Origin: Squalus acanthias
Taxonomy: Eukaryota
Direction of reading: 5' to 3'
Assembly (NCBI GenBank): GCA_030390025.1
Contig: CM059432.1
Coordinates: forward strand, 18,478,001-18,542,000
Length of the DNA: 64,000 nucleotides
Below the pieces are notes generated by a model that saw only the letters and a list, made by a program, of their open reading frames with translations, did no database searches and had not been told where the DNA came from. How positions within the stretch are numbered: position 1 is the first letter of the stretch; every line of letters begins with the position of its first letter. Made by a program: the position numbers and the translations under genes. Below, in pieces: positions 5,241 through 63,220 of the stretch.

Positions 5241-6960
5241 TGAACATAAGAACATAAGAAATAGGAGCAGGAATAGGGCACTTGACCCCTCGAGCCTGCT
5301 CCGCCATTCAATAGATCACGGCTGATCTTGGGCTCAAAACCACTTCCCTGCCCGCTCCCCATAACCCTTCACTCCCTTATCTTGCAAAAATCTGTCTATC
5401 TCCACTTTAAATGTATTTAATGACCCAGCCTCCACAGCTCTCTGGGCAGAGAATTCCACCGATTTACGACCCTCTGAGAGAAGAAATTCCTCCTTATCTC
5501 AGTTCTAAAAGGGCAACCTTTTATTCTGAAACTATGCCCCCGAGTTCTAGATTTCCCCACGAGGGGAAACATCCTCTCTGCATCTACCTTGTCGAGCCCC
5601 CTCAGTATCTTTTATGTTTCAATAAGATCACCTCTCATTCTTCTAAAGTCCAATGAGTATAGGCCCAATCTGCTCAACCTTTCGTCATAAGTCAACCCCC
5701 TCATCTCTGGAATTAACCTAGTGAATCATCTCTGAACTGCCTCCAATGCAAGTATATCCTTCCTTAAATAAGGAGACCAAAACTGTATGCAGTACTCAAG
5801 GTGTGGTCTCACCAATACCCTGTACAGTTGTAGCAGGACTTCCCTGCTTTGCTTTTATACTCCAACCCCCTTGAAATAAAGGCCAACATTCCATTTGCCT
5901 TTTTGATTACTTGCTGTACTTGCATGCTAACTTTTTATGTTTCATGCACAAGGACCCCCAGGTCCCTCTGAACTGTAGCATTTTGTAATCTCTCTCCATT
6001 TAAATAATAATAATTTGCTTTTTTATTTTTCCTGCCAAAGTGGATAACCTCGCACTTTCCCACATTATACTCCATCTGCCAAATGTTTGCCCACTCACTT
6101 AGCCTGTCTATATCCCTTTGCAGATTCTTTGAGTCCTCTGCACAACTTGCTTTCCCACCCATCTTTGTATCATCTGCAAACTTGGCTACATTACACTCTG
6201 TCCCTTCATCCAAGTCATTAATGTAGATTGTAAATAGTTGAGGCCCCAGCACCGATCCCTCTGGCACCCCACTAGTTACCATTTGCCAACCGGAAAATGA
6301 CCCATTTATCCCGACTCTCTGCTTTCTGTTAGTTAGCCAATTCTCTATCCATGCTAATATATTACCCCCAACTCCGTGAGCTCTTATCTTATGCAGTATC
6401 CTTTTATGTGACACCTTATCGAATGCCTTCTGGAAATCCAAATACACCACATCCACTGGCTCACCTTTGTCCACCCTGCTCGTTACATCCTCAAAGAACT
6501 CCAGCAAATTTGTTAAACATGATTTCCCTTTCATAAAACCATGCTGACTCTGCTTGACTGCATTATGATTTTCCAAATGCCCTGCTACTGCTTCCTTAAT
6601 GAGGGACTCCAGCATTTTCCCAATGACAGATGTTAGGCTAACTGGTCTATAGTTTCCTTCTTTCTGTCTCCCTCCTTTCTTAAATAGGGGTGTTACATTT
6701 GCGGTTTTCCAATCCTCTGGGACCTCTCCAGAGTTCAGGGAATTTTGGTATATTGCAACCAATGCATCCACTATCTCTGCAGCCACTTCTTTTAAGACCC
6801 TGGGATGCAGGCCATCTGGTCCAGGGGACTTGTTGTCTTTTAGTCCCATTATTTTACCAAGTACTATTTCCTTAGTCATGATGCGGATTATTTCCTTAGT
6901 GATAGTGATTGTCTTTAGTTCCCCCCTCCCTGTGGCCCCTTGATTCTATGATTGTACGAT
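5241..6960 (-). mobile_element. CR1 (HER1-like) LINE, 5'-truncated
   Basis: 314-aa RT ORF 5935-6879 (PGPDG, QHGF, GSVLGP, FADD); TTCTTATG-type tail at 5241. Confidence 0.95.
6865..6900 (-). mobile_element. 12-nt Penelope-like micro-insertion flanked by a 12-bp TSD
   Basis: TATTTCCTTAGT (6865-6876) + CATGATGCGGAT + TATTTCCTTAGT (6889-6900); GTCATGATGCGGA is identical to 63223-63235, the terminus of the Penelope-like insertion. Confidence 0.65.
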
Positions 6961-14030: not shown

Positions 14031-15269
14031 CCATTCTTAAAAATTGCCATTGAATCTATAGTCGGCTATGTGTTTGTCAATTATGTTGTTGATGATTTTG
14101 GTCCCAAACTCAATAGTGGTACTCAATGGAAAATAGGAGGAAGTCCATCCATAGATATAGAAGTAATGAGCAACTAGGAATTGCAAAATCTAAAGAGGAA
14201 GAGCATAGCTGCTTCCAAAAATTAAAAGTTTAGTTTTTTGTTTAAAATTAGAGCTGTCAGGTGAATCATCCAGTTCTCATGATTGTGCAGTCGACAACCG
14301 TATTAAAGGAGCAATTAATGTATCTTTTTCAAGGTGACAGCTGTGACATTTCTCCTAGTGTAAACGAGGGAACCATTTTATGCAGGTGGGCAGATGGATG
14401 AACTGGCTTTTAGCATAAAGGTTATCCTGTCCCAATAGTTTAACCGAACATCTTCATTGGAAATGCAGGCTAAATACCTCCAGGGGATTGCAAGAGGCAA
14501 AACATCGCATAATAAAATGTATGCACAAAAAAAACCAAAACTGAGCATCAAATAAAACCATTTGGGGGCAGTTGGTTGAAGATTTTTCCTCAATAACACA
14601 TAGAATAATAAAAGATAACTAAAGCTGCAGCTGTCCCGTGCACTAACCCACTAACTTTCGAATCTGTAAGTGATAAAGTGCAAGGCAAAGGGACTATTCA
14701 AGGAACAGGCTTCCTATTTGGTTGAAATCTAGGTGAACAGCCAAGGCCCATAATGCAGGTGACCACCAAAGTTAACAACAGTCGGAGAGACGATGAGATG
14801 AATGAAGAATGAAGGAATAGTGGTTAGATGTCACGAAACTTGATTTTTAAAAACTGTAGATATTATGAGGGAGAGAAGACGAAGGATGGCCAGGAGTTCC
14901 ACAGTTTTGAGGTCCTATAGTGAAGGAAAATCTGTAACAATTTAGACACCCTTCTTCAGAAGAGTTAGGTCTCAGACTCTATGACAAATGTATTCACATT
15001 TCCAGTGTACCAGTCCTTGCATCAGATTGGTGCGACCAGGAAGAACATATCAGTGAATGTATTAGTCTTAACTGGTTCCCTTATTAGGTCCTTAGACTAT
15101 ATTAATTACAACATTTAAATGATATCTCTGCATTAAGTTTACATTTCTTTACAGAGAGAGTTGCTGGAGTGTGGAATGCTTTGTAACAGGGAGTAATTGA
15201 GGCACAGACCATTGTAGCTCTTTAGGGAAAAGTAGATAAATATTTGAAGCAGAGGAAAATATAAGATTA

Positions 15270-15730
15270 AAAGAAAGACTTGCATTTATATAGCGTCTTT
15301 CACGACCACCGGACATCTCAAAGCACTTCACAGATAATGAAGTACTTTTTGAAACGTAGTCACTGTTGTAATGTAGGAAGCGTGGCAGCCAATTTGCTCA
15401 CAGCAAGCTCCCACAGACAGCAATGTGATAATGACCAGATAATCTGTTTTAGTGATGTTGATTGAGGGATAAATATTGGCCAGGACACTGGGGATAACTC
15501 CCCTGCTCTTCTTCGAAATAGTGCCGTGGGATCTTTTACGTCCACCTGAGAGAGCGGACGGGGCCTCGGTTTAACATCTCATCCAAAAGACGGCACCTTC
15601 GACAGTGCAGCACTCCCCTGAAGTGCCACCTTAGATTTTTGTGCTCAAGTCCCTGGAGTGGTACTTGAACTCACAAACCTTCTGACTCTAGAGGCAAGTG
15701 CGCTACCTACTGAGCCACAGCTGACACTGT
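15270..15730 (-). mobile_element. tRNA-derived Deu-domain SINE (SacSINE1-like)
   Basis: A/B-box head at ~15650-15725; Deu-domain core GATGAGATGTTAAACCGAGGCCC..AGATCCCA; L2-like tail. Confidence 0.85.
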
Positions 15731-20526: not shown

Positions 20527-20659
20527 TTTCTGTTTAAAATAGAAAGAAAAAGTGAACTGAATGTTGCAGTGGGTTAGACACTTTAACCCCTGTGAGTTCG
20601 TGCCAATTTCTACACAAGCAGATGGAATGGCTGCCTCCTGGCTGTAAGAGTTCTATTAT

Positions 20660-22135
20660 GAAACATAGAAACATAGAAAAATAGGAGCAGGAGTAGGCCA
20701 TTCGGCCCTTCGAGCCTGCTCCGCCATTCAATATGATCATGGCTGATCCTCTATCTCAATACCATATTCCCGCTCTCTCCCCATACCCCTTGATGCCTTT
20801 TGTGTCTAGAAATCTATCTATCTCCTTCTTAAATATATTCAGTGACTTGGCCTCCACAGCCTTCTGTGGTAGAGAATTCCACAGGTTCACCACCCACTGA
20901 GTGAAGAAATTTCTCCTCATCTCAGTCCTAAATGTCCTGCCCCGTATCCTGAGACTGTGACCCCTCGTTCTAGACCCCCCAGCCAGGGGAAACATCCTCC
21001 CTGCATCTACCCTGTCAAGCCCTGTCAGAATTTTATACGTTTCAATGAGTTCCCCTCTCATTCTTCTAAACTCTAGTGAATACAGGCCTAGTCGACCCAA
21101 TCTCTCCTCATACAACAGTCCTGCCATCCCAGGAATCAGTCTGGTGAACCTTCGTTGCACTCCCTCTATGGCAAGTATATCCTTTCTTAGGTAAAGAGAC
21201 CAAAACTGCACACAGTACTCCAGGTGTGGTCTGTATAACTGTAGTAAGACATCCTTGCTCCTGTACTCAAATCCTCTTGCAATGAAGGCCAACATACCAT
21301 TTGCCTTCCTAACTGCTGCTGCTCCTGCATGTTTGCTTTCAGTGACTGGTGTACAAGGACACCCAGGTCCCTTTGTACATCAACATTTCCCAATCTATCA
21401 CCATTTAAATAATACTCTACCTTTCTGTTTTTCCTACCGAAGTGGGTAACTTCACATTTATCCACGTTATACTGCATCTGCCATGTATTTGCCCAGTCAC
21501 TCAACTTGTCTAAATCACCTTGAAGCCTCTTTGTATCCTCCTCACAACTCACAGTCCCACTTAGTTTCGTGTCGTCAGCAAACTTGGAAATATTACATTT
21601 GGTTCTCTCATCCAAATCATTGATATGTATTGTGAATAGCTGGGGCCCAAGCACTGATCCCTGCGGTGCCCCACTAGTCACCGCCTGCCACCCCGAAAAG
21701 GACCCATTTATTCCTACTCTCTGCTTCCTGTCTAAAACCAATTTTCAATCCATGCCAGTATATTACCCCCAATCCCATGTGCTTTAATTTTGCACACTCT
21801 TATGTGGGACTTTATCAAAGGCCTTCTGAAAATCCAAATACACCACATCCACTGGTTCTCCCTTATCTATTCTACCAGTTACATCCTCAAAAAACTCCAG
21901 CAGGTTTGTCAAACACGATTTCCCTTTCATAAATCCTTGTTGACTTTGTCTAATCCCGTCCTGTTATCACATCCTTTATAATAGACTCTAGCATTTTCCC
22001 TACTACTGATGTTAGGCTAACCGGTCTGTATTTCCTTGTTTTCTCTCTCCCTCCTTTTTTAAATAATGTGGTTACATTTGCCACCCTCCAATCTGCAGGA
22101 ACTGTTCCATAATCTATAGAATTTTGGAAGATGAG
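20660..22135 (-). mobile_element. CR1 (HER1-like) LINE, decayed with internal deletions
   Basis: RT C-terminal ORFs 20756-21295 and 21187-21741; HER1-type tail. Confidence 0.95.
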
Positions 22136-24737: not shown

Positions 24738-26389
24738 AAAGGAGGCAGCTGGGGGTGCTATAATTGAACTCGGCCCCACTGGCTGTGGAGACAACCCTTG
24801 TGGCCATTAGGTGAATTCAGCATTAGCCTTGCTACCAACAGTAAGTAGGCTACGTATACTCGCTGCCTGTACTCAAACATAAATAATGACCAAATCAAAT
24901 GAGGTTCTGGAGGGCTGCCAGTACCATGGGACTTTATTCACTTCTCCCAATGTTAAAGGCCTGTGTATCTGAACTTGTAAGCTTTGCTGCTCTGCTTTAT
25001 ATGTCTTGGGACCATCTCAGGCATTTAGCCGCTGCACCATCAGGAGTATCAAGTTAATTGAGAAGGACTCACTTGTTGCCAGCCAGACTACTGAAGTAAT
25101 ATGTATCTGTCACATTACAGATTAACATCGGAACCCATACAAATCATTTCTACAGTAAACTGCCATATTCTAAATAGCCTGACATGTAGAACAAGTTATA
25201 ATTATTATTTTGTTATTTACCAGTTCAGTGAGTTGTGTCGTTACAAAAAAAGGTAATGTTTCTGTGAGTAAGATGATAATATGATGTGGTTGCATACATT
25301 AACTGGAAGCAGTATGAGTGATTGAACTGGATTAACTGAAATGTTTCCCCCCCCACAAATAGTCATATTATAATCAATATTAGCCTCCCCACTCGGAATA
25401 ATTTTCCGTCTACCCTGTTACTTCATGAATTCCCTTTGTTAATATTCACAGAGAGATAAAAAAAATGGCAGCTGGTCCTGATCAGTCCAGGTGACACTGT
25501 CACTCCCCACATCTCAATTTGCTGCTTCTCCCCCGGACCAACATTAACACACACCTGTTCATACTTCGTTCATCTCTCTGGTGCACAAGGAATGATAAAG
25601 AGACACGCAAGTTAATAAAATAAATGACAAGATTACTCAGTCATTTTATGAGGACCTTTCGAGGGCATTATTTTATCTAGGATAGGAGTAATATGCAGAT
25701 TATCATCAGCTGTGGGGACGGTGGAATCTGCAATGTGAAAGATAAGAAGTGGAGAAATGGAAGATTTCAAACACTATAGAGATTCAAGGAAGGCACTTCA
25801 ATTGGTCAACTATTAAATTCGGCAGGACCTCCAGGTTTGCCGTCCGCCAATCCTACCCCCCGCCCCCCGCTCTCTGCACGCCTCGGAGTTATTATCAGGG
25901 CCCATGATTCACTTCAGGAAAGTGCAGGCTTAAAGAAAGAAGGTTCCAAGGACAGAGGAGGACATTGATCTTGGGAGGAGGATAGACAAAACTATAGATC
26001 GATCAAATGTACCAAATTAGAGGTTAAAGATTAGTCTAGTGATATTTTACTGCTATAATCAAGGTGACTGGTGTATGTTGATTGAATAAGACAAGTACTG
26101 TATTTATTATGAGATTCTGGTACAATTCATGCCATGAGGTACAAACAGCACTCAATTCTCCAGTGTAAACACATTTGCAAAGTAAGTCACAGTACCAGCA
26201 ACTGACTCAAATGGGTCTAAGGATGATACGAGTGGTGGGAGAGGAAAATTGCAAGTAAGTAAAATTTAGAGATGGGAAAAATTAAAGCAGAGGGTGGGGG
26301 GTGTCACAATAGAGGACAAAAATTGGAGAACCTTAAAGGAGATTTCAAGCCATCAGCAGTCTTTGCCAAGGCCCCATAAGGACTGGGGA

Positions 26390-27475
26390 TTTTTTTTAAA
26401 TTCGTTTTTTTATGGGATGTGGGCGTCGCTGGCAAGGCCAGCATTTATTGCCCATCCCTAATTGCTTTTGAGAAGGTGGTGGTGAGCCACCTTCATTGAA
26501 CCACTGCAGTCCGTGTGGTGAAGGTAATCCCACAGTGCTGTTAGGGAGGGAGTTCCAGGAGTTTGACCCAGCGACGGCGATATATTTCCACATCAGGATG
26601 GTGTGTGACTTGGAGGGGATGGCGTTCCCATGCACCTGCTGCCCTTGTCCTTCTAAGTCAGCAGTAGTGCTACCGAGCCACACTTGGTGATGGACATTGA
26701 AGTCCCCCATTCTGTGCCCTTGCTACTCTCAGTGCTTTTTCCAAGTGGAGTATTGATTCATCAGCTGAGGGAGGGCAGTAGGTGGTTTCGTTGCTCATGT
26801 TTGACCTGAGACTTCATGGGGTCCGGAGTCAATGTCGAGGACTCCCAGGGCCACTCCTTCCCGACTGTATACCACTGTGCCACCACCCCTGGTGTGTCTG
26901 TCCTGCTGGTGGGATAGGACATACCCAGGGATGGTGATGGAGGTGTTTGGGATGATTCTGTGAGTATGACTATGTCAGGCTGCTGCTTGACAACTCCCCC
27001 AATTTTAGCACAAGTCCCCAGATGTTGGTGAAGAGGACTTTTCAGGGTCAACTCGGCTGGGTGTGCCATTGCCGTGTCCGTAGCCAGTGCCAAGGTCGAT
27101 TCCGGGTGGCCGTCCAGTTTCATTCTTATTATTGTTTTTCACAGCAGTTTGTTACAACTGAGAGACTTGCTAGGCCATTTCAAAGGGGTAGTTAAGAGTC
27201 AACCACGTTGCTGTGGGTCTAGAAGTCACATATAGGCCAGTCCAGCGAAGGACAGCAGATTTATTTTCCTAAAGGACATTAGCAAAACCAGATGGGTTTT
27301 TAACGACAATCCAATAGTTTCATTACAGATGCGAGCTTTTTATTCCAGATTTATTTAATTAATTGAATTTAAATTCCCCAGCTACCATGGGGGGATTTGA
27401 ACTCACGTCTCTGGATCTATTAGATCAGTCCTCTGGATTACTAGCCCAGTGACATTACCACTATGCTACCGTTCC
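26390..27475 (-). mobile_element. Internally deleted LINE-B with tRNA-like 5' head, start of APE endonuclease, and LINE 3' end plus poly-A
   Basis: A box 27458-27468, B box 27393-27404; NIWGL..KQQPDIVILTES and GDFNVHH endonuclease motifs; junction at ~26655 to the LINE-B 3' end. Confidence 0.8.
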
Positions 27476-27499
27476 TGACACGAGTGGTGGGCGATTAAG

Positions 27500-27830
27500 A
27501 AAAGAAAGAAAGACTTGCATTTATACAGCGCCTTTCACGACCACCGGACATCTCAAAGCGCTTTACAGCCAATGAAGTACTTTTGAAGTGGAGTCACTGT
27601 TGTAATGTGGGAAATGCGGCAGCCAATTTGCGCACAGCAAGCTCCCACCATCAGCAATGTGATAATGACCAGATAATCTGTTTCAGTGATGTTGGTTGAG
27701 GGATAAATATTGGCCAGGACACCGGGGATAACTCCCCTGCTCTTCTTCAAAATAGTGCCATGGGATCGTTTACATCCACCTGAGAGAGCAGACGGGGCCT
27801 CGGTTTAACGTCTCAACCGAAAGACTGGCA
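27500..27830 (-). mobile_element. Deu-domain SINE, head missing
   Basis: Near-identical to 15270-15600. Confidence 0.85.
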
Positions 27831-29696
27831 GGCAACTGTAAAGGGAAAGTGAACTCTAGGTGCAAGCATGGGTCTGCAGGCAAGTGATAGATGCCTGTTT
27901 GATGGCTGCTGAAGTCAAGGTGTTGCTGCATGAGATGCTTTTGAGGAAGGCTGACCTCTGCATCACTTCATAGAATCATAGAATAATACAGCATGGAGGA
28001 AGGCTATTCGGCCCATCATGCCTGTGACGGCTCTCTGAAGGAGCTACCACTTAGTCCCACTCCCACATCCAGGCACCATCCCCATAGGCTAGCACTGCAA
28101 GCAGCTGCAATCAAGTTTCAGGCTGCAGGTGACCATTATGGACCCCATATGTGCCAGCCCTCTGTTGCATGATTGCTGCAAATGCTCTTACAGCAGATGG
28201 GAAAGCTCTGTATCCACCTCTCCGCAGACTCAGGCCTTCAGAAGACAGGTCCCAGTAGTCATTGACACGTCGGTGCGTCCCGTCCACAAAAATGGTTGCT
28301 GGCATCTCGGCATGCCTTCTTTCATGCAGCTCCATGCAAAACCAGACACCTTGTGATTGGGGGACTTCTGATGAATCATCCAGCATAATGGTTAGGCAGG
28401 TGTGGAGATATCATAGAGGAGCTGGCAGAGCTGTGGTGGTGCAGCTTCCTGCAGGAAGGGAAGTCTCCACCAACACTACATCTACCAAAGTGAGGCACTT
28501 TCACTTCTATCTGAGGGTTTCAGTGGGAGGGCACAAAGCAGCCTGACTTACCTGGCATCCCTCTGTAGGTCTGCCTCTCCTGAACGTGTGAGCTCAGAGA
28601 ATCGCTAGTGGCAAACCCATTAATACCAGGAAATAATTAATGACAACTGGCACAAAGGCTCATGAAAGCCCAAGTGCCAACAGGAAAGAAGCAAATAAAT
28701 CCAGAAATGGCCCAAAACACTTACTTGAAGCATCGTGGTCCTTTTAAATGCCCCTCCACCTGAAAAGTTCACTCACGCCAAGTTTCCTTGTTGCAGTGAA
28801 GACTTGTTGTCACAAACATGCAGTGGGGGCCTTACCTGTCTCCTTCCAACAGTGAAATGTCTCTCCTACCTGCTTCCAATAACCACCTAAGATCCAATCA
28901 GAGATCTAGGTGACCAGTGTCATTAGATGGAAATCAGGTCAATCTGACTCCTGATGACTTTCACGGCATGCCCGAGGCTGAAATTTGACAGGGGTTCCAC
29001 CTGTCTCTTGTAGTAACTCTGGCAGAACCCCCAGGAAAGTGGTTGTTTACCCCCAGGCCAACTCAGACGGGTCTAAGGATGATACGAGTGGTGGGAGAGA
29101 AAACCCTCATGGTATTGCAGCCTCCAGCAAAAAGCGGAGGCAGTTGGACTGTACCAGACACTGAGGACAGCCTCACTGTGTCATTGTTTGAGTTCTGAAA
29201 GGGCAGTCTTGTTTCTTTTTTTTTTTGCTAACCTCCTTTACTACTCTCACAGTGGGACAGATTTGCCTGTTCTAGCACCCGTCTGGGATCAGTGCACTAA
29301 GGGCTATGTAGCCACACCCCAAGTGGCCAGCACTTCTGAAAGTGGTTTGCCTACCTCTTCGACCATCCCTGCTAATATCTCCTTCTTTGTCTCGGTGTCC
29401 ATTTTTGTCTGATTACTTCACTGTGAAGCATGTTGGGATGTTTCTCGACGTTAAAAGCGCTATAGAAAAAACGTTGTTGTTGTTGTTGTTGTTGCTCAGA
29501 TCAGCTACTTGTTGCCCTAAACAGCTGAGCCATTGAGGAAACCGTTTTGAATATGAAATTATGAAATATGAATTATGAAATACATTTGAAATTGAAAGTC
29601 CTTGGTCCTTACAAAGTTAGCATTTACTTCACATATTATGGGGCAATCTTACACTATCCAAGTCTAGTACAAAATGACTCACTCTGATATTCAGCG

Positions 29697-30650
29697 AGAA
29701 ACATAGAAACATGGAAAAATAGGAGCAGGAGTAGGCCATTCAGCCCTTCGAATCTGCTCCGCCATTCAATATGATCATGGCTGATCCTCTATCTCAATAC
29801 CATATTCCAGCTCTCTCCCCATACCCCTTGATGCCTTTTGTGTCCAGAAATCTATCTATCTCCTTCTTAAATATATTCAATGACTTGGCTTCCACAGCCT
29901 TCTGTGGTAGAGAATTCCACAGGTTCACCACCCTCTGAGTGAAGAAATTTCTCCTCATCTCAGTCCTAAATGTCCTACCCCGTATCCTGAGACTGTGACC
30001 CCTCGTTCTAGACCCCTCAGCCAGGGGAAACATCCTCCCTGCATCCAGTCTGTCTAGCCCTGTCAGAATTTTATACGTTTCAATGCGATCCCCTCTCATT
30101 CTTCTAAACTCTAGTGAATACAGGCCTAGTCGACCCAATCTCTCCTCATACGACAGTCCTGCCATCCCAGGAATCAGTCTGGTGAACCTTCGCTGCACTC
30201 CCTCTATGGCAAGCATATCCTTTCTGAGGTAAGGAGACCAAAACTGCACACAGTACTCCAGGTGTGGTCTCACCAAGGCCCTGTATAACTGTAGTAAGAC
30301 ATCCTTGCTCCTGTACTCAAATCCTCTTGCAATGAAGGACAACATACCATTTGCCTTCCTTACTACTTGCTGCACCTGCATGTTTACTTTCAGTGACTGG
30401 TGTACAAGGACACCCAGGTCCCTTTGTACATCAGCATTTCCCAATCTATCACCATTTAAATAATTCTCTACCTTTCTGTTTTTCCTACTGAAGTGGATAA
30501 CTTCACATTTATCCATGTTATACTGCATCTGCCATGTATTTGCCCACTCACTCAACTTATCTAAATCGCCTTGAAGCCTCTTTGCATCCTCCTCACAACT
30601 CACAATCCCACCTAGTTTCGTGTCATCAGCAAACTTGGATATATTACAAG
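29697..30650 (-). mobile_element. CR1 (HER1-like) 3' portion with open 290-aa ORF remnant
   Basis: ORF 29794-30666, FADD to C-terminus; very similar to 20660-21600. Confidence 0.95.
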
Positions 30651-31612: not shown

Positions 31613-33490
31613 AAAAAGCAGAAGCAGCACGCTAAGCGATCCCACAATCAACAGATCAGATCAAAGCTCTGCAGTCCTGCCACATCCAGTCGTGAATGGT
31701 GGTGGACCATTAAACAAATAATGGGAGGAGGAGTCTCTATGTATATCCCCATCCTCAATGATGGTGGAGCCCCCAGCACGTTGTTGCAAAAGACAAGGCT
31801 GAAGCGTTTGCAACCATCTTCAGCCAGAAGTGCCAAGTGGATGATCCATATCGGCCTACTCCTGAGGTCCCCACCATCACAGAAGCCAGTCTTCAGCCAA
31901 TTTAATTCACTCCACATGATATCAAGAAACAGCTGAGCGCACTAGATACAGCAAAGGCTACGGGCCCCGACAACATCCCGGCTGTCGTGCTGAAGACTTG
32001 TGCTCCAGAACTAGCCGCGCCTCTCGCCAAGCTGTTCCAGTACAGCTACAACACTGGCATCTATCCGACAATGTGGAAAACTGCCCAGGTTTGTCCTGTC
32101 CACAAAAAGCAGGACAAATCCAATCTGGCCAATTACCGCCCCATCAGTTTACTCTCAATCATCAGCAAAGTGGTGGAAGGTGTCATCGACAGTGCTATCA
32201 AGCAGCACTTACTCACCAATAACCTGCTCAATGATGCCCAGTTTGGGTTCTGCCGAGACCACTCGGCTCCCGACTTCATTACAGCCTTGGTCCAAACATG
32301 GACAAAGGAGCTGAATTCCAGAGGTGAGTTGAGAGTGAATGCCCTTGACATCAAGGCAGCATTTGACCGAGTGTTGCATCAAGGAGCCCTAGTAAAACTG
32401 AAGTCAATGGGAATTGGGGGGAAAACTCTCCACTGGCTGGAGTCATACCTAGCACAAAGGAAGATGGTTGTGGTGGTTGAAGTTCAATCATCACAGCCCC
32501 AGGACATCGTTGCAGGGGTTCCTCAGGGCAGTGTCCTAGGCCCAACCATCTTCAGCTGCTTCATCAATGACCTTCCCTCCAACATAAGGTCAGAAATGGG
32601 GATGTTCGCTGATGACTGCAGTGTTCAGTGCCATTCACAACTCCTCAGATAATGAATCAGTCCATGCCTGCATGCAACAAAACCTGGACGACGTTCAGGC
32701 TTGGGCTGATAAGTGGCAGATAACATTCGCGCCACAGAAGTGCCAGGCAATGACTATCTCCAAAAAGCGCGTGTCTAACCACCGCCCATTGACATTCAAT
32801 GGGATTACCATTGCCAAATCCCCCACCATCAACATCCTGGGGGTCACCATTGACAAGAAACTTAACTGGAACAGCCACATAAATACTGTGGCAACAAGAG
32901 CAGGTCAGAGGCTAGGTATTCTGTGGTGAGTGCCTCACCTCGTGACCTCCCAAAGCCTTTCCACCATCTACAAGGCACAAGTAAGGAGTGTGATGGAATA
33001 CTCTCCACTTGCCTGGATGAGTGCAGCTCCAACAACACTCAAGAAGCTCGACACCATCCAGGACAAAGCAGCCCGCTTGATTGGCACCCCATCCACCACC
33101 TTAAACATTCACTCCCTCCACCACCGGCGTACCGTGGCTGCAGTGTGTACCATCTACAAGATACACTTTATGCCAAGGCTTCTTTGGCAGCACCTCCCAA
33201 ACCCGTGACCTCTTTCGCCTAGAAGGACAAGGGCTGCAGGCGCATGGGAACACCACCACCTCCAAATCACACACCATCCTGACTTAGAATTATATCGCCG
33301 TTCCTTCATTGTCGCTGGGTCAAAATGCTGGAACTCCCTCCCTAACAGCACTGTGGGAGTACCTTCACCACACGGACTGCTGCGGTTCAAGGCGGCGGCT
33401 CACCACCACCTTCTCAAGGGCAATTAGGGATGGGCAATAAATGCTGGCCTTGCCAGCAACGCCCACATCCCATAAATGAATAAAAAAAAA
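31613..33490 (+). mobile_element. LINE-B, 5'-truncated, with RT and poly-A tail
   Basis: RT ORFs 31987-32652 etc. ([31 protein letters not shown]); short duplication AGCT at both flanks. Confidence 0.95.
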
Positions 33491-37161: not shown

Positions 37162-37215
37162 AAAAACAGGTTGGAACCGATCAGACTGCATAGTGAGCCA
37201 GGATAATTTGCCAAT

Positions 37216-38432
37216 ACATTGGTTGCAATATACCAAAGTTCCCTGGACTCTGGAGAGGTCCCAGCGGATTGGAAAACCGCAAATGTAACACCCCTATTTA
37301 AGAAAGGAGGGAGACAGAAAGCAGGAAACTATAGACCAGTTAGCCTAATATCTGATGTTGGGAAAATGCTGGAGTCCTTCATTAAGGAAGCAGTAGCAGG
37401 GCATTTGGAAAACCATAATTTAGTCAAGCAGGTCAGCATGGTTTTATGAAAGGGAAATCATGTTTAACAAATTTGCTGGAGTTCTTTGAGGATGTAACGA
37501 GCAGGGTGGACAAAGGTGAGCCAGTGGATGTGGTGTATTTGGATTTCCAGAAGGTATTCGATAAGGTGACACATAAAAGGATACTGCATAATATAAGAGC
37601 TCACGGAGTTGGGGGTAAAATATTAGCATGGATAGAGAATTGGCTAACTCACAGAAAGCAGAGAGTCGGGATAAATGGGTCATTTTCCGGTTGGCAAACG
37701 GTAACTAGTAGGGTGCCACAGGGATTGGTGCTGGGGCCTGAACTATTTACAATCTACATTAATGACTTGGATGAAGGGACCGAATGTAATGTAGCCATGT
37801 TTGCGGATGATACAAAGATGGGTGGGAAAGCAAGTTGTGCAGAGGACTCAAAGAACCTGCAAAGGGATATAGACAGGCTAAGTGAGTGGGCAAACATTTG
37901 GCAGATGGAGTATAATGTGGGAAAGTGCGAAGTTATCCACTTTGGCAGGAAAAATAAAAAAGCAAATTATTATTTAAATGGAGAGAGATTACAAAATGCT
38001 ACAGTTCAGAGGGACCTGGTGGTCCTTGTGCATGAAACACAAAAAGTTAGCATGCAGGTACAGCAAGTAATCAAAAAGGCAAATGGAATATTGGCCTTTA
38101 TTGCAAACGGGTTGGAGTATAAAAGCAGGAAAGTCCTGCTACAACTGTACAGGGTATTGGTGAGACCACACCTCGAGTACTGCGTACAGTTTTGGTCTCC
38201 TTATTTAAGGAAGGATATACTTGCATTGGAGGCAGTTCAGAGACGATTCACTAGGTTAATTCCAGAGATGAGGGGGTTGACTTATGAGGAAAGGTTGAAC
38301 GGGTTGGGCCTATACACATTGGAATTTAGAAGAATGAGAGGTGATCTTATTGAAACATATAAGATACTGAGGGGGCTGACAGGGTAGATGCAGAGCAGAT
38401 GTTTCCCCTCATGGGGAAATCTAGAAGCAGGC
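37216..38432 (+). mobile_element. CR1 LINE RT fragment, same subfamily as 5241-6960
   Basis: 313-aa ORF 37446-38387 nearly identical to the 5935-6879 product. Confidence 0.95.
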
Positions 38433-39270
38433 TTATTAATGGAAGTGTGGCTGAGAACAATGTTGCCATATTGATAGCAAATCTCACTCCTCAGCCGCCA
38501 TATTTAGTCAGCTTCTGAGAAAGTAAGGAAGACTTGCATTTATATAGAGCCATTCACGACCACCGGACGTCCCAAAGTGCTTTACACCCAATGAAGTACT
38601 TTTTTGAAGTGTAGCCACTGTTGTAATGTTGTAATGCTTCTCAGAGGAAGAAAACAAGTCCTATCAGATCGAAAATGATGGAGGTGAGTTTAATTTGGAG
38701 CATACATCAGGCAGGCGGAGGGCAGAGCTAACACACCACCCTTCTGTGTGGAAGCAGGCACTGACTGTTCCCGTGGACTGGGTGCAATACACAACATTTT
38801 GCGGCCTCCAGGGACATGCAGATGCCCGATATGTGCCACTTTTGCCGCGACATCCCACCAGGAGCATCCTAAGCAGGAAACCTCCTCAACTGTGGCTCAG
38901 TGGGTAGCAGTCTCGCCTCTGAGTCAGAAGGTGGTGGGGGTGAAATTGGGTATCGCCCTGTTTGGGCCGTTAACTTTTGAAATTTTGAAAGTTTAGCCCC
39001 AGGCACTAAGGATTCTGAACTTCTACTAAATTGGGTGTTGGTGCCCCAGGAAGGAAGTGGGGCGCTAAATCAAGCGCTAATGACCTCAGTGGGGCGCTAC
39101 AGGGGCGCTACCAGCAGTGCGCTAAGGAATTTCAGGTGCAATGTATTCAGCAATGATCCTTCACACTGGTTCCTTCCTGCTCTTAAAGGGGAGGTTGCAT
39201 CATTGTGCAGACGATGCTCATTTTCAGCATTGCTGGCTTTGAGGCGACCTGCGAGCAAGTGAATCCCCTG

Positions 39271-41139
39271 ATGGCTATGGCTGTTGCCACTTCTAGGGAG
39301 AGAGCTCGTCGGTTCACAGACGTGGCATTGGTGGCTGGACTGGAGCGAAGGAGGGCAATGCTGTTCCCGGCCACTGGAAGGAGGCCATCACCTCAGGTGT
39401 TCAGGGCAATGTGGAGGGAAGTGGCCCAGGAGGTCTTGGCCAGTAGTGTGGTGGAACGCAGCCTGACACAGTGCCGGAAGAAATTCAACGACCTCAGTCG
39501 GGTGGTCAAGGTGAGTACATGCTTCAACTGCTCCTACATACCAGCATCTGAACCTCAGTCTGTGCACACTGCGCCACCACTCACCCACCAAACATCTTCA
39601 CCTACTCAAACTCACATCCACATCTCACATCTTGCCTATGATCACAGCTATTCAACGACGGCAGGCATACCTCCCAAACACATATCTGGACTATCACTCA
39701 AACACATTTGTTTCTCTTGCAGGCCAAGCTCCCCTAGGAGGGAGCAGCAGAGAACAGGCGGGGGAGATGTGCAGCTCCAGCAGCTCTCAGACCTTGAGGA
39801 GCGAGTGCTGCGACTCATTGGGCAGCAGGTAGTGGGCGCCATGGCCGTCGGCGACATCAACCCCATGGGGGGCAACAACAGTATGTTCAGCCCCTCTCCT
39901 TCTCTCATCCCACTTCCCCATCACACCACAAACCTTTCTCACTTTCCACTTCCTGAGAATGTCTGCGTTCCTTGCTCCATTCCTGCCCCGCTGTCCTCAC
40001 CTTAACGCGAGTCTTGTGCCTTTATGCTTTCAGATAATCAGCAACCAGATGACCAGCCTATCCCTGAGCCTCCCACGGAGAGTGAGGAAGGAGAAGAGGA
40101 GGAGGAGCAAAGCACCGTGTCACTGCATCTCTCACCCGCAGGCACCACCTCAGATACTGGCACTGCGCGATCTTTAGAGGCAGCTTTAGTAGAGGGGTCT
40201 GCACTGGGTGATGCACTGGGGATGAGCGGGCTGCAGCAAGGCCAGGGGGAAAGGGTAGCTCGGGAACCAGCTCCCTGGAGGGCGAGTTCTGCTGCACAGG
40301 ACTCAGATGAGGACCTTGATGGTGAGGTGTTCACAAAAAGGGTGATGGGCATGCACTCCGAGATGGTAGATGCAATGGCAAGGGTGCCCGAGAGCCTCTC
40401 GGCAATGGTAAGGAGCGTGGAGGAGTCCGCCTCCAACATTGCACAGAGCTCTGCGCACACCATGGAGCCCATCATTTCCACTCTGCAGAGTTTAGTGGAC
40501 TTCCAGAGAGACCGTGTGGATCCAGACCTCATGACGCGTGTCATGGGCGATGTGGCAGTTTCCATTGCAGCACAGGCGGAAGCGACACAACATCTTAATG
40601 CTGTTATGCAGTCAATGGTTGCTGCCATCGAGTCTCAGACTGCTCTCATGCAGTCTCAGCTTGATGCCACGAAAGATCTGACTGCTGCCATAGTCGCTGG
40701 GACCACCACAGTCCACTGGGGATCTGACGGTGTCGTAGCAGCCCAGCAATCTGTGCTCCAGCAGATTGGTAGGGATGCTGAGGTGCTGCCCCGGGGGAGT
40801 GGCAGTGGGTCAGTGGAGCAGGAACCTGCTGTCCTCTCTCAGGACGACAGCATTCCTGATTCCACCACTGCCACACCGCCATTGCCCTTGCCGTTGCCTG
40901 TCATCCAGCCAGCCTAGACTGCTGCCGCCCAGCCTGAGGTGGTGCAGTGTACAGCTGGGCCTTCTAGACCCAGAGCTGGCCGAGGGTGTCCTGCAAGGCC
41001 ATCTGTAGTCTCTGGCACTGACACTCAGCAGCCTTCCACCAGCCCTGCTGCAGCCACTGGGGAGATACTACTTAGGAGCTCTAGATTAGAAAAGGGGACT
41101 GTAAAGAGGGAAGGCAAGGGTTTGCACAAGGGTGATTAG
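39271..41139 (+). pseudogene. Harbinger Myb/SANT-like gene (exons 39271-39510, 39723-39880, 40034-41139), inactivated
   Basis: RFTD..WREVAQEV..RSLTQCRKKFNDL; GT-AG introns; frameshifting deletion giving TAG at the start of exon 2; internal TAG at 40915. Confidence 0.85.
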
Positions 41140-41304
41140 TCAATATTTTTGTTGTATATATGTGGTTAATGGTTTTTGATAAATTTATTACTGGAATGTT
41201 GCAGATTTGGTGCTGTGTCTCATTTCAGTTCTGGGGTGTGGTATGGAATCACAAAGTGATGGAATGATGGCGACGTGCTCAGCAACTGGAACGAGGTCTC
41301 AAAG

Positions 41305-41520
41305 TCACTGGAAACGAAGTCTGAGGAGGCGATCATGGACCGACCTTGCAGAGCGCCGATTGAGTGGCTGCCTCCACCGTCGCTGCTGCTTGTCCTCCTG
41401 TTTCTCCTGCTCCTCTTCTTCCTCCTCCTCATCCTCCTCCTCCTGAGGTGGTGCGGCTATGCCTGGTGGCAATGGCTGCGCCCTCATGATGGCCAAGTTG
41501 TGCAGCCTGCAGCAATTTGC
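41305..41520 (-). pseudogene. Harbinger transposase C-terminal remnant
   Basis: CCRLHNLAIMRAQPLPPG..poly-E..RLLRLRF matches the C-terminus of the intact TPase. Confidence 0.85.
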
Positions 41521-42073: not shown

Positions 42074-43653
42074 AAGGATCCAAATATTGCACTTTCAAAT
42101 CTCCCCTCAATGAAACTGAAGAATCTTTATGTGCCAGAACACTCGTTAAAATGCAAAATGCTGAAATCGGTCAAAAGGCCTCTTTGACTATGTGAAACTA
42201 ATAATACGGCATTGTAGGCCGACGAAAACTTAACTGGATGTGGACGCCTTTAAATAGCGCTCCTCTAGGGGGCATCCGAATGAAAACCGCCTCCTGTTAA
42301 CGGCAGGCACACAAGCAGGGGGCGAGAGGAAATCTTTCATCCGGGGCGCTGCCGAGGCAATGCGCACGGCAATGACGTCACGATCTCCGGGCGCAGGAGA
42401 TTGGGTAGCAACGCCTTACCGCCGCAACAAAACTCCCGCCGAATTTAGCAGGAGGCGATGATATCGCCGCGCCCGGTCGCAACCCCATTTGCGCCCTGTT
42501 AGCGTTCCCCGGAGGCGCTAACGGGAGGCGCAAAGGAGTCCAATTTCTAGCCCTCGGGTTTCAAGTCCTACTCCAGAGACTTGAGCAGAAAAACTAGGCT
42601 GACACTCCAGTGCTGAGGGAGTGCTGCACTGTCGGAGGTGCCGCCTTTCGAATGAGACGTTAAACCGAGGCCCCGTCTGTCCTCTGAGGTGGACGTAAAT
42701 GATGCCATGGCACTATTTTGAAGACGAACAAGGTAGTTCTCCCCGATGTCTTGGTCAATATTTATCCCTCAACCAACAACACTAAAAACATATTACAGTA
42801 TCTGGTCATTATCGCATTGCTGATTGTGGGAGCTTACTGTGTACAAATTGGTTGCAACGTTATCTATATTACAACAGTGACTACACTACAAAAGAACTTC
42901 ATTGGCTGTAAACCTCTTTGGGACGTCCTGAGGCCGTGAAAGGCACTTCATAAATGCGAGCCTTTCTTCCTTTCTTTTTCTTTTCCTGACTCTGGAAAGT
43001 CCTCTGGGGTCAGCAGCAGAGGCTCCTGGTCGGCACGATCCCAGCATAATCGCCAGGAGCGCAGGTTTGCCAATCTATGGGACTCTTTGTGTTCAAGGGC
43101 TTGCGGAAAAGTATTTCGCCACTTGGAAATGCATTGCAGTTTTTAATCAATGAAACGTTAAGCTATCAAAAAAGCTCGAGGCCGCAGGCAATTTTGAAAT
43201 AATTGCTCGTGGATTTGGGAGGCCCCTTCACAAATAAACACAAAAGAGTTTTGCTGTCAAAGGGAATTGACATTTATCGGGCCTGAATCTTTCAGTCCAG
43301 CGTCAGAGGAGATGGCGAACATAAGGAAGATGAATTTATGCTCATAAAAGGGAGATGAACTACAGCACAGTCATGTATTGATCTGGTGTCAACATTATTA
43401 CAAACGATTTCAAGGTCTCACAGCTTGGTCCTCCTCTGTTGTGAATTTTGAATTATTTCCTTTCCGGCAGTGACTACGGTGATGTATTGATAACGGCTGC
43501 CTTGTAGATAAGTTTAGATCATCTCTGACACCCCGTTTGCAAACAAGGCTGCTGTCCTTCACAGCATTAACATTGTGGATGGTTCCATGGTTCAGACTAT
43601 CATGTCCTCTTGTCACTTCAGCGGAAGGCAGAGATTCATAAAGAATAAACAAT

Positions 43654-43770: not shown

Positions 43771-44004
43771 GCTATATGTTAACCAGTGTTTGGAGTTTAT
43801 TTTCTCTGGGCTTCATTATTATTATTTTTTTTTAGCAATTTTCATTTCCATCAAATTCAATGCCTTGTAAGTTTTCTTTTTCTATCATTAAAATAGTAAC
43901 ATTGGAGCTAAATTGGGTGTAAACTGGAAAACCTTAGAATCAGTCTGAGAAGGCCGTGGAGCACAGAGCCTGGGCAGGGCTGCAAAGTAGAGAATCGTGG
44001 AGTG

Positions 44005-44690
44005 CCATGGAGTGGGAAGGCCCTGGTGTGGAGTCTGGGAGGGCCCTGGTGTGGAGTCTGGGAAGGCCCTGGTGTGGAGTCTGGGAGGGCCCTGGTGTGG
44101 AGTCTGGGAGGGCCCTAGTGTGGAGTCTGGGAGGGCCCTGGTGTGGAGTCTGGGAAGGCCCTGGTGTGGAGTCTGGGAGGGCCCTAGTGTGGAGTCTGGG
44201 AGGGCCCTAGTGTGGAGTCTGGGAGGGCCCTAGTGTGGAGTCTGGGAGGGCCCTGGTGTGGAGTCTGGGAAGGCCCTGGTGTGGAGTCTGGGAGGGCCCT
44301 AGTGTGGAGTCTGGGAGGGCCCTGGTGTGGAGTCTGGGAAGGCCCTGGTGTGGAGCCTGGGGGGGCCCTGGTGTGGAGTCTGGGAGGGCCCTGGTGTGGA
44401 GTCTGGGAAGGCCCTGGTGTGGAGCCTGGGGGGGCCCTGGTGTGGAGTCTGGGAAGGCCCTGGTGTGGAGTCTGGGAAGGCCCTGGTGTGCAGTCTGGGA
44501 AGGCCCTGGTGTGGAGTCTGGGAGATCCATGGTGTGGAGTCTGGGAGGGCACTGGTGTGGAGTCTGGGAGGGCCCTGGTGTGGAGTCTGGGAGGGCCCTG
44601 GTGTGGAGTCTGGGAGGGCCATGGTGTGGAGTCTGGGAGGGCCATGGTGTGGAGTCTGGGAGGGCCTTGGTGTGGAGTCTGGGAGGGCAT
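44005..44690. repeat. 23-bp minisatellite, ~29 copies (CCCTGGTGTGGAGTCTGGGARGG)
   Basis: Direct tandem array with no spacers; decays into related sequence on both sides. Confidence 0.97.
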
Positions 44691-47374
44691 AGAGAGGAGC
44701 ATCTGGATGATCCACGGTGTGGAGAGTCTGGCAGGGCGTGGAGAGGAGAGTCTAGGAGGTCGTGAAGAGGAGCGTCTGGGAGGTCCACGGTGTGGAGCAT
44801 CTGGGATTTCAGGTGTATGGGGTGAGAGGAAATGTAGCGGCATGGATAGAAAGTTAGTTGATGGACACAGTATAGATTCTCTTAGGTGATATAGTTAAGA
44901 GGAGAACCCTGAGATACTGAGAATATCTTCACTGGTTCAAAAAAAGCAAAGAGGAGATTTAATAGAGGTTTTAAAATTATAAAGTATTTTGTTAGAGTGA
45001 ATAGGAACAGACTATTTCCTCTGGTTGGGAAGTAACTGACGAGGGATCAACAATTTAAAATTGTCACTTTGAAAGTTAGGCGAGTGGTTAGGAGAAATAT
45101 CTTGATTGAGAAAATTGGTACAGCAATGACATTGTGCGGGGGAGTGGAGGTGGGGAAACTGGTCTTGGGCGATAGTGTTTGATGGGAGATAGCGAATCAC
45201 AGCGCATTTCACACCCCGCCCAATTTTCTCTTGCATTGAGTCAAATTCGCTCTGTATCTTTTTAAAGTAGGGTGGATAAACATTTGAAGCAGAGGAAGAT
45301 GCAAACCTATGGGGAGAGAGCAGGAAAAAATTGGATGATAAGTCAAACACTTCCTAGCACCCAATTCAAGAGTGCCATCGACAGAGGCCGAGGTTTTTCG
45401 GCAGTTTGTGATTTTCTGACCATTATGCAGAGAGATTACCTGAAGAAAGTGCATGATATGGAGGAGCCTGAAGGGGGAACAAATAAATGGACTGAAATTC
45501 TAAATTTGTATAATTATTCTTTTGAGCTTATATTTTCCTAGTCTCCCCTCATGCCTGTCCATTTGTCACCTTCTGTAGAGCCACCTTAGGAACTAGTTGT
45601 TTGGGAAATCAAAAGTGTGCACCCACATGATAAAGCCATTGCACCATAAACGTTTGATGCATGGCATGAAAACATTCACCATCTTCCTGTGGGTTAAGAT
45701 TCAATGATCTCCTTTTAGTGGGACATTTGTGGCTTTATACAGGAATCAAAGCAAAAGCGCATTCTCTTTCGTCCCATTTATTCTCTTGCTGGGTTCCCCC
45801 AGCTCCTTTCTGCCAGTCTTAGCTCTTTCCATTGATTAGTGCGAAGACCATTCAATGACCTCTGTGGTGGATGGGTAACCAATTCCTGGACCTCTGGCGA
45901 TGGCAATCTCTGATTCGCACGATGCTCCTTCCTCACCTGTTTCCACCACCTTGTCAGGAATCGATCTGCGGAAACCGCTGGGGCGAGCCTTCAGTCATTT
46001 TTGTTGCACTATATTTACAGATAGAGCTTGCGCCAACTCATTCAGAGCATGCGGACATTTCAAGTTAATTTATTTTATCTTTACCAGGCTGACAAAAAAA
46101 TTTGGTGGGAGCAGGACACTGCAACTTTAATAGCTCTGACTGCGAGTCGCACTCTGACTTTCCCTTAAGGAGCACAGCTACCACTTAGCTTTCTATCATT
46201 GTGACAACAGGGCAGAATTTCACCTCTGATGCAGTTTGTACCCCTTTGCCAGCTGTGCCAGCTGTTGCTGATCTGTCACTTTGTATTAGAGTAATGAATG
46301 AGCTTTTATATGTGGCACTGCTGGGAGGTGTGAGACATATGTCGCACCTTGCAAGCTGGCCTCAACATACCTATTTTAGTAAGGTCAACTTGACATGTAT
46401 TTGCACCAGATCCCCTTGAGGCAGAAAGTGAAGGCTGAATCGGCCAGGAGAGCATTGGAATAGTAGGAGCTGTTGTCATACTATGTTCGAATAGCAATGA
46501 GGAAGATGAGTGTATACGCTTCTTTTCTGCCACTTTCTATTTGTTCCAGCACATTAAGAATTGAAGCACAGACACCTGAACTGATCCAAACCAAACTAAA
46601 ACATTCTTTAAAAATTGGCAACAAGGAGCAGTGACCCACTTTCTTTCACAGAAAGAAACAAAATGATATATTGCTGGTTCATTTATAATACACGGCATTC
46701 CCTTTTGATTAAGAAGTAACAGGCTAGATTTTCCACTTGGCTGTGAACTGGGCGCTGACCCTGCTGTAGTTGCCAGGGTCAGTGTCATTCAAATATTACA
46801 GGAGAGCCATATTTTCCTCATTTAACTATGCTTTTGCATGCACCTGCCCACCCTCTGGGAATTGCAGGGAAGCGCAGATGTGGCACAACGAGTCTTTCAG
46901 CACTTTTCTGACCCCTGCCGACCCCAGTTCCGCCAGAAAACCCATTGGAAGCGGGGATGGGAATTCTAGGCTTACTCGGCTTAGTGAAGCAACAGTTAGT
47001 TAGCGGTGGCCAGGGAGCAGATAGAATTTCAGATAGGGTTCTAGAATTCATGTTAGAAAGAAGACAACCCCAAGCAGAGCTGATCGGGGGGGGGGGGGAA
47101 AGGGAGGAGGTTACCACATCCGACACTGCCAAATCTACCACTCCATGCATGTGGAAATATGTAGGAAAATCTTTAATGACCTTACTAGATATTGATTATC
47201 ATTGATAAGCTCAAAACTTTAACAACATCATTCATCATAAAGTGGGTGCTCCCAATTGTAAAACTGGGTCGTGATCCATTATACCCATTTTGCTCCATTT
47301 GACTTCTGCAATCATGATTTAAACTGGTTCAGGGTACACCCAGCAGATTTTGGATGGATGTGTGTAAATTAGTG

Positions 47375-52802: not shown

Positions 52803-52963
52803 GGAAATGACACACACAGAGTTTGTAAAATAAATAAGTTTTTGTATTCAAAATATACATGTTTGGTGTTTGGAATCATTGGTGCCTTGGCCGGCTTAGG
52901 GGTTGCGTGCTGGGTTCATTGATGTTTTTAGCAATGGCAGAAGCCATTTCCACAGCAGGGGCC

Positions 52964-63042: not shown

Positions 63043-63220
63043 CAGAAGTGGGGATGTTCGCTGATGACTGCACAGTGTTCAGTGCAATTCACAACTCCTC
63101 AGATAATGAAGCAGTCCATGCCCACATGCAACAAGACCTGGACGACAGTCAGGCTTGGGTTGATAAGTGGCAAGTAACATTCGCACCACAGAAGTGCCAG
63201 GCAATGACTATCTCCAACAA

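What the first reader, a model, noticed from the sequence alone, without database searches (positions are those of the whole stretch)
26390..27475. LINE beginning with a tRNA-derived Pol III head, caught as an internally deleted LINE-to-SINE intermediate
Seen on the minus strand, in order: A box (TAGCATAGTGG) and B box (GAGTTCAAATCC) head; ~250 bp of leader; an ATG at 27123 leading into APE endonuclease motifs with no ORF1; a deletion junction at ~26655; the LINE-B 3' end and poly-A. Known: LINEs normally use internal Pol II promoters, and some SINEs arise from bipartite LINE deletion products. Inference: LINE-B may be a single-ORF autonomous element with a captured tRNA/SINE promoter, and this copy links it to a partner SINE.
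Basis: partly seen in the sequence, partly recalled or inferred. Interest (0 to 1): 0.7.

Follow-up and report, generated by a model that had tools for sequence, protein, structure and literature searches.

The report
Deleted copy of tRNA-headed shark LINE
This is a decayed, internally deleted copy of an abundant shark jumping gene (a Zenon LINE) whose full-length form really does start with the tRNA-like promoter piece normally seen only on short SINE repeats, which hints at, but does not prove, transcription by RNA polymerase III; nothing shows that this particular copy is a stepping stone to a SINE.

Summary
The head, leader, endonuclease remnant, junction (26659/26658), 3' end and A-tail are real. 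The element is elasmobranch Zenon (CR1 group, single ORF). All 7 published elasmobranch Zenon consensuses (5 species, about 3.3 kb; PMC13343379 supplement) begin with this tRNA-like head; the hagfish and coelacanth Zenons (3) do not. Contigs from 4 runs tile head, leader and endonuclease continuously, so a chance SINE insertion is refuted. The paper's text never mentions tRNA or promoter.

Two corrections. (1) ATG 27123 is out of frame with endonuclease motif I and reaches later motifs only through a frameshift in this copy. (2) 'Intermediate' is unsupported. SINE-sized leader-to-tail joins exist (34 contigs, 8 junctions), but at other positions. Whether other copies share this junction could not be counted.

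Pol III transcription is inferred. The sense strand has no TTTT in a 1,873-nt consensus (0 of 112 related ORFs are TTTT-free), but this is weak alone (P about 0.07-0.15). The scan noted this family before on other DNA of this genome (9 notes seen). Verdict: new variant of a known kind; this copy is ordinary debris of an unusual family.

The parts
27393..27475 (-). tRNA-derived head = exact 5' end of the Zenon element (A box 27468-27458, 7-nt anticodon-like loop, long variable-arm-like hairpin, B box 27404-27393)
   Evidence: The first 46 nt are identical to SquAca_Zenon-3 and 45 of 46 to SquAca_Zenon-1 (compared by eye). Family contigs stop matching at 27471-27475 and run on into unrelated flanks (records 8, 15, 16).
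27124..27392 (-). 5' leader, strongly conserved between shark and ray consensuses. 5 ATGs lie between 27388 and 27178, all opening short frames. The copy's only TTTT (27287-27284) is copy-specific.
   Evidence: by eye; ATGs; rows 27284 and 27285 (family reads otherwise in 86-99% of depth across the 4 runs).
27121..27123 (-). Conserved ATG, out of frame with endonuclease motif I (opens a short overlapping frame)
   Evidence: Present in 6 of 7 published consensuses; out of frame in the ray consensus that reaches motif I (by eye).
26659..27059 (-). Broken N-terminal part of the APE endonuclease (motif I at 27041, motif II near 26960, GDFNVHH at 26707), with frameshifts, stops and small deletions
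   Evidence: tblastn with 59 full-length EN-RT homologs. Pfam Exo_endo_phos_2 is only weak, E 0.064.
26658..26659 (-). Internal deletion junction; about 2.1 kb of the 3.3-kb element is missing (rest of EN, linker, all of RT)
   Evidence: 3' part = last about 272 nt of the window consensus. Size estimated against the 3,314-nt SquAca_Zenon-1.
26411..26658 (-). ORF C-terminal end (WNSLP ... HHHLL, stop at 26460-26458) and about 50-nt 3' UTR of Zenon
   Evidence: 81-87% to 6 other window copies; alignment A1; homolog match.
26390..26410 (-). Interrupted poly-A tail; no target-site duplication
   Evidence: family loose ends at 26409-26418 are A-tails.
31626..33490 (+). Longest sister copy (5'-truncated) carrying the RT domain; used as LINE-B reference
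   Evidence: Pfam RVT_1 E 2e-26; ORFs; shares the 3' end.

Best explanation
The locus is one dead copy of the elasmobranch Zenon LINE that kept both ends and lost about 2.1 kb from the middle. SHOWN: the family is a 3.3-kb single-ORF (APE-RT) CR1-group element whose 5' end is a tRNA-derived head followed by a conserved leader, in sharks and a ray. INFERRED (about even odds): the head is the element's internal promoter. Pol III would start at tRNA +1 and read the whole TTTT-free 3.3 kb into the A-tail. The uncapped RNA would be translated without an in-frame AUG, through the leader or by reinitiation or recoding from the overlapping short frame, and ORF2p would copy RNAs carrying the Zenon 3' end. 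Because promoter and tail sit on the same molecule, any internal deletion gives a ready-made SINE. That would explain the several leader-to-tail junctions. This copy is one of many such deletion products (RT template jump or later genomic deletion; undecided), not a demonstrated ancestor of the short forms.
For: Head at base 1 of 7 of 7 elasmobranch Zenon consensuses and absent from 3 of 3 hagfish/coelacanth Zenon 5' cells (first 400 nt only, by eye). Continuous contig tiling and similar summed depth over head (0.11-2.1 M), leader (0.056-0.61 M) and endonuclease (0.17-1.6 M) in the 3 larger runs. 76-128 contigs per run carry family letters at 27101, 27142 and 27163, and record 31 bridges 27002-27181. 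Closest proteins are whale shark (67-77%) and manta (80%). Sense-strand TTTT: 0 in the 1,873-nt window consensus, 2 in 5,951 nt of copies versus 26 in 8,545 nt of the window's CR1 family; 0 of 112 related ORFs of at least 1.8 kb are TTTT-free; none in 7 x 400 nt of published consensus (by eye). 8 of the 15 joints shown (of 914) link 27143-27192 to 26465-26525, in 34 contigs over all 4 runs.
Against: TTTT absence is not significant alone: iid expectation 2.7, synonymous-codon permutation P 0.145. The strand is T-poor (0.21), and one relative (L088, T 0.20) has only 1 run in 2.9 kb. No transcript start, strand or polymerase data: only contigs were available. The ray consensus has a B box one base short (by eye). 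A-B spacing is long (53 nt). The head and leader of this copy fold no better than shuffles (z 0.94 and -0.84). In SquAca_Zenon-2, a shortened consensus, a deletion of about 20 nt puts the ATG in the endonuclease frame (by eye), so 'no in-frame AUG' is not universal. The joints were laid at 80% likeness, many with under 30 letters on the short side, and none shows a whole SINE from head to tail.
Confidence: 0.55

Rival explanations
1. Same anatomy, but Pol II makes the RNA. The head is a captured SINE/tRNA relic, or a tRNA-like structure that is cut out of read-through transcripts (RNase P type) to define the 5' end, as self-cleaving ribozymes do for RTE, R2 and Ingi.
For: All characterised autonomous LINEs use Pol II or host co-transcription (established knowledge; PMC5786205 discussion). 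Anticodon- and variable-arm-like stems are kept across consensuses with changed letters (by eye), which points to RNA structure rather than only A/B boxes. The TTTT deficit is explained in part by composition.
Against: No TTTT in about 2.7 kb of family sequence, rank 1 of 113 among related ORFs. A and B boxes are kept at the exact 5' end in 5 species.
Confidence: 0.33
2. This copy belongs to an amplified non-autonomous family with the 26659/26658 junction and is a real step from LINE to the short SINE.
For: It has the complete 5' head, the tail and many small deletions. It is the most diverged of the window's copies from the window consensus (86.8% versus 89.6-96.9%, though it was not used to build it). 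Deletion-laden Zenon subfamilies exist in Squalus (2,886 and 3,096 nt consensuses). Zenon is known to spawn SIDEs in Lepidoptera (PMC6740152).
Against: None of the 32 contig pieces shown crosses the junction (272,968 more not shown). The other 6 3' ends in the window continue as normal LINE or are truncated. The SINE-sized joins use different and varied junctions, and 914 joints in 4 runs indicate that one-off deletions are common.
Confidence: 0.1
3. Chance insertion of an unrelated SINE next to a LINE fragment.
For: The head and endonuclease part are single-copy in the window.
Against: 7 of 7 published consensuses join head, leader and ATG region; contig tiling.
Confidence: 0.01

Closest known systems
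Elasmobranch Zenon LINEs (SquAca_Zenon-1/2/3, CarCar, ScyCan, RhiTyp, HypSab_Zenon-1; Stuart et al. 2026, PMC13343379)
   Same: Same family: 5' 400 nt match by eye, single ORF without ORF1, poly-A tail, shark and ray hosts.
   Different: This copy lacks about 2.1 kb. The paper's main text has 0 occurrences of 'tRNA' and 'promoter' and 1 of 'SINE', so the head is in their data but not remarked on.
Persaeus SIDE / lepidopteran Zenon (Wang et al. 2019, PMC6740152)
   Same: Internally deleted Zenon derivatives joining the 5' UTR and ORF start to the ORF end, 3' UTR and poly-A.
   Different: Persaeus has no tRNA homology or Pol III promoter and is an amplified family of 260-390 nt. This copy is 1,086 nt, tRNA-headed and not shown to be amplified.
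Bipartite LINE-derived SINEs (Bov-tA, CoeSINE4/5, SINE2-1_EBu; Kojima 2018 PMC5786205, Kojima 2020 PMC7245038)
   Same: tRNA head + LINE 5' part + LINE 3' part.
   Different: There the head is added after the deletion and the parent LINE (RTE, Vingi) has no head. Here the full-length LINE already carries it.
RTE-1_DAn and relatives (one sentence in Kojima 2018)
   Same: A LINE carrying a tRNA-like sequence that matches many SINE2 elements: a precedent.
   Different: RTE clade, insect by name. The position and function of the tRNA-like piece are not given in the passage read, and a follow-up search found 0 papers.
Shark SINEs HE1 (V-SINE, partner HER1) and SacSINE1 (Deu, L2-type tail)
   Same: tRNA-headed repeats of the same hosts.
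   Different: Different partners and tails as described. The head and leader have no blastn match to the window's other SINE copies.

Membership tests
Zenon (CR1 group) LINE | Single ORF with APE endonuclease and RT, no ORF1 | tested here: met
   Only about 430 nt lie between base 1 and endonuclease motif I, with short frames only. RT is in sister copies sharing the 3' end. Published length about 3.3 kb.
Zenon (CR1 group) LINE | Poly-A tail | tested here: met
   stated as unique to Zenon among CR1-group elements in PMC13343379.
Zenon (CR1 group) LINE | RT groups with Zenon | tested here: inconclusive
   FastTree on 304 RTs: a 94-tip clade (support 0.994) with lepidopteran, shrimp, sponge and amoeba single-ORF proteins. 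No sequence labelled Zenon was in the tree.
Zenon (CR1 group) LINE | Sequence identity to a published elasmobranch Zenon consensus | tested here: met
   By eye only, first 400 nt (cells cut): 46 of 46 and 45 of 46 identical 5' bases to SquAca_Zenon-3 and -1, colinear leader.
tRNA-derived SINE (SINE2) | tRNA-derived head with A and B boxes at the 5' end | tested here: met
tRNA-derived SINE (SINE2) | Short, non-coding body | tested here: not met
   1,086 nt with about 400 nt of endonuclease and about 200 nt of ORF C-terminus.
tRNA-derived SINE (SINE2) | Transcribed by Pol III | not testable with these tools
   Only contigs were available; the TTTT deficit is indirect.
SIDE / bipartite non-autonomous LINE family | 5' and 3' ends of the parent LINE joined by internal deletion | tested here: met
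SIDE / bipartite non-autonomous LINE family | Many copies share the same junction | tested here: inconclusive
   No genome held; 0 of 6 other window 3' ends share it; 0 of 32 shown pieces cross it, most pieces not shown.

The most novel reading that the evidence does not exclude
Elasmobranch Zenon is an autonomous, protein-coding retrotransposon transcribed end to end by RNA polymerase III from a tRNA-derived internal promoter. Its ORF is kept free of terminators and translated from an uncapped RNA without an in-frame AUG, and it repeatedly gives birth to true SINEs by simple internal deletion.
Probability: 0.4. Interest if true: 0.8.

Novelty: new variant of a known kind. Interest (0 to 1): 0.52.

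Why it matters
If the head drives transcription, this breaks the textbook split (LINEs use Pol II, SINEs use Pol III) and offers a natural 3.3-kb Pol III mRNA whose translation route can be tested. It also gives a one-step route to SINE birth: delete the middle of a LINE that already owns the promoter, instead of adding a tRNA head to a bipartite LINE. The family has very many copies in sharks and rays. This single copy adds little beyond showing both ends.

Tried and rejected
No genome held, so no direct copy counts. Head pattern scans found 0 matches in viral contigs and 0 in metagenome contigs. Protein searches with the ATG frame and with the broken endonuclease frame found nothing. No RNA holder is on record; X16 is only guessed to be RNA, and its relatively high head/leader depth is not used as evidence. 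Depth dips at 27059-27140 and near 26790 were read as divergence of this copy, not loss of linkage, because an equal dip lies inside the endonuclease. tRNA heads in distant relatives: Rfam found none in 12 loci, of which only 3 (L002, L006, L082) have 5' DNA and lie in the clade. ARAGORN at low stringency gave noise. No similarity of the leader to those 3 upstream regions (shuffle P 0.2-0.84). Folding of head and leader was not better than shuffles. The 12-mer shared by both flanks was rejected as a TSD: it lies 150 nt beyond the A-tail and belongs to a 43-bp duplicate elsewhere. The neighbouring SINE at 27497-27830 was rejected as the partner: no shared head or tail. Literature searches for a description of the head or of a Pol III LINE: (10 searches; open-access library only; none found describing it). 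Motifs were absent from the Kojima 2018 supplement. The supplement of PMC5499810 could not be read.

Full report
OBSERVATION. On the minus strand the element runs from 27475 to about 26390. A pattern scan found this pair and one other in the window, and none in 200 shuffles. Rfam's tRNA model aligns from its position 1 at 27475, at 22.6 bits, below the family threshold. Head, leader and endonuclease part are single-copy in the window. The last 250-270 nt match 6 other places at 81-87%, and the match begins at 26658. tblastn with 59 full-length EN-RT homologs puts endonuclease motif I in frame -1, motif II in frame -3 and the later motifs in frame -2. ATG 27123 is in frame -3, so it misses motif I. 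No TSD was found.

IDENTITY. The longest sister copy (31626-33490) carries RT (Pfam RVT_1). Its nearest proteins are from whale shark (67-77%) and manta ray (80%). Next come EN-RT proteins at about 44-52% from metagenomes, sponge, shrimp, amoeba and moths. A FastTree of 304 RT segments places it in a 94-tip clade (support 0.994) with these, rooted on the window's CR1 family. Short or fragmentary hits were left out of the tree, and no labelled Zenon was in it. Stuart et al. 2026 (PMC13343379; I saw the abstract, passages, the methods section and supplement rows cut at 400 letters) report Zenon in five elasmobranchs: no ORF1, poly-A tail, not in repeat databases. Their Supplementary Table 2 holds 7 elasmobranch consensuses of 2,886-3,314 nt. 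All 7 begin with this head and leader. The window's first 46 bases are identical to SquAca_Zenon-3 and differ at 1 base from SquAca_Zenon-1 (by eye). The 2 hagfish and 1 coelacanth Zenon cells show no such head and contain T-runs (by eye). The host is therefore a shark, probably close to Squalus (inference). About 2.1 kb is missing from this copy (estimate).

FAMILY-LEVEL TEST. Logan contigs from 4 runs (organisms A, B, D and a guessed RNA run of A) were laid on 26280-27500 at 80% likeness: 56,422, 112,944, 99,965 and 3,159 contigs. In the 3 large runs the unique flank has depth 2-33, the 3' end 1.4-13 million, and head, leader and endonuclease 0.056-2.1 million. A dip to 0.015-0.16 million lies at 27059-27140, and a similar one lies inside the endonuclease near 26790. 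Summed depth is not a copy number. Pieces tile 27454-27288, 27382-27224, 27187-27033, 27181-27002 and 26980-26807. At 27101, 27142, 27163, 27189 and 27207, 76-128 contigs per large run carry family letters. Head-bearing contigs stop matching at 27471-27475 and go on into other flanks. No single piece spans the element. One 2,550-nt contig of organism B matches the flank and 3' end with 7 differences, so the insertion is shared with that organism. The head is thus the family's 5' end, and the chance-insertion rival falls.

THE 'INTERMEDIATE' CLAIM. Of 914 joints, 15 are shown. 8 of these link 27143-27192 (end of leader) to 26465-26525 (3' end), in 34 contigs over all 4 runs. If these carry the head, they are SINE-like forms of about 340-450 nt (inferred; no contig shows a whole one). 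Many have under 30 letters on the short side; 3 of the 8 reach 31-64. Their junctions vary, and none is this copy's. None of the 32 pieces shown crosses 26659/26658, but most pieces were not shown and no genome was held, so sharing is undecided. The economical reading is one deletion product among many. Internal deletion of Zenon is known: Persaeus in Lepidoptera, which lacks a Pol III promoter (PMC6740152, parts 1-2 of 5 read).

POLYMERASE. Vertebrate Pol III stops at four or more T (established knowledge). LINE-B sense strands have 2 such runs in 5,951 nt (Markov expectation 6.6). One is absent from the window consensus, and the other is shown to be copy-specific. The 1,873-nt consensus has none. 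The window's CR1 family has 26 in 8,545 nt and 4 in its 1,501-nt consensus. Among 161 loci fetched, 112 have ORFs of at least 1.8 kb; none is free of T4, and the median observed/expected is 1.20. Against this, the strand is T-poor, the iid expectation is only 2.7, and a synonymous-codon permutation gives P 0.145. About 0.6 kb of the middle was never seen. The signal fits Pol III and does not prove it.

TRANSLATION. The ATG is kept in 6 of 7 consensuses. In the ray consensus, which reaches motif I within the visible cell, it reads a different frame from the endonuclease. Three shark cells run in the same phase as far as they go, and SquAca_Zenon-1 is colinear. SquAca_Zenon-3 lacks the ATG. In SquAca_Zenon-2 a deletion of about 20 nt brings it in frame (all by eye). 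Record 31 has a net one-base insertion over 27002-27181, which does not restore frame. The A-rich linker before the ATG varies in length between consensuses, so the ORF cannot start upstream of it. Non-AUG initiation, reinitiation or recoding is inferred. Several distant relatives have a Met a few residues before motif I.

ORIGIN. Three clade relatives with 5' DNA have no tRNA-like head and many T-runs. The head was therefore probably gained in the elasmobranch lineage, before sharks and rays split or before a transfer between them (inference). Its anticodon arm and long variable arm resemble a serine tRNA (recalled, not tested). Whether the LINE took a bare tRNA or a whole older SINE is open.

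WHAT IS KNOWN. [quoted passage not shown] Also seen: Kojima 2020 (PMC7245038, passages), Luchetti 2017 (PMC5499810, parts 1-2 of 6; supplement unreadable), Nishihara 2016 (PMC4824008, passages), Ohshima 2013 (PMC3747384, passages; author recalled), a bivalve SINE paper (PMC11481361, passages) and the whale shark preprint (10.1101/443036, passages). None of what I read describes this head. Ten searches found no such description. Subscription papers, Repbase and Dfam were out of reach. After reaching this reading I looked up the scan's notes: 9 notes on other parts of this genome describe the same family. They are unchecked AI notes and are not counted as support.

VERDICT. Real feature. Known family with an apparently unremarked tRNA head: new variant of a known kind. 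The family-level question (a Pol III LINE?) is interesting and testable, at about 0.4 for the full novel case. This copy is not shown to be an intermediate. Interest 0.52.

Noticed in passing
window 27497-27830 (-); other copies 15269-15726, 38518-38629, 42557-42979, 61269-61738, 62571-63044: A second SINE family abuts the element's 5' flank. It is 5'-truncated here; a full copy has an A+B head at 61279-61333. It looks like the Deu-domain SacSINE1 type (label recalled). It is not the Zenon partner.
   Followed up: partly
window 26205-26247, 29061-29103 and 27480-27491: A 43-bp duplicate (93%) 2.9 kb apart. A 12-mer from it recurs exactly 4 nt upstream of the head. Not a conventional TSD; unexplained.
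   Followed up: partly
window 39187-40002 and 50560-51465: Two ORFs with Myb/SANT-like domains (Pfam Myb_DNA-bind_5) inside two similar stretches (39341-41514 and 50900-53161, 64-78%). Possibly Harbinger-type transposon remnants (recalled).
   Followed up: no
window 5209-6767, 20625-22127, 29697-30648, 37214-38426, 54636-55524, 58073-59476 and others: An abundant second LINE family (canonical CR1 type, RVT_1 hits), used as the TTTT control.
   Followed up: partly
window 43942-44806: Tandem array with a period of about 69 bp, more than 10 units (self-matches).
   Followed up: no
L002 180-212; L006 391-423 and 450-482: A conserved hairpin-containing motif of about 33 nt in the 5' UTR of two distant Zenon-like elements. 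A similar motif is visible by eye in the hagfish EptBur_Zenon-2 cell. It resembles a hammerhead core with altered catalytic positions (recalled); no significant match to the shark leader.
   Followed up: partly
L082-L161 (genome contigs): Many prokaryote MAG records (for example Sedimenticola and Thiodiazotropha bins) hold intact eukaryote-type LINE ORFs, probably host contamination of the bins.
   Followed up: no
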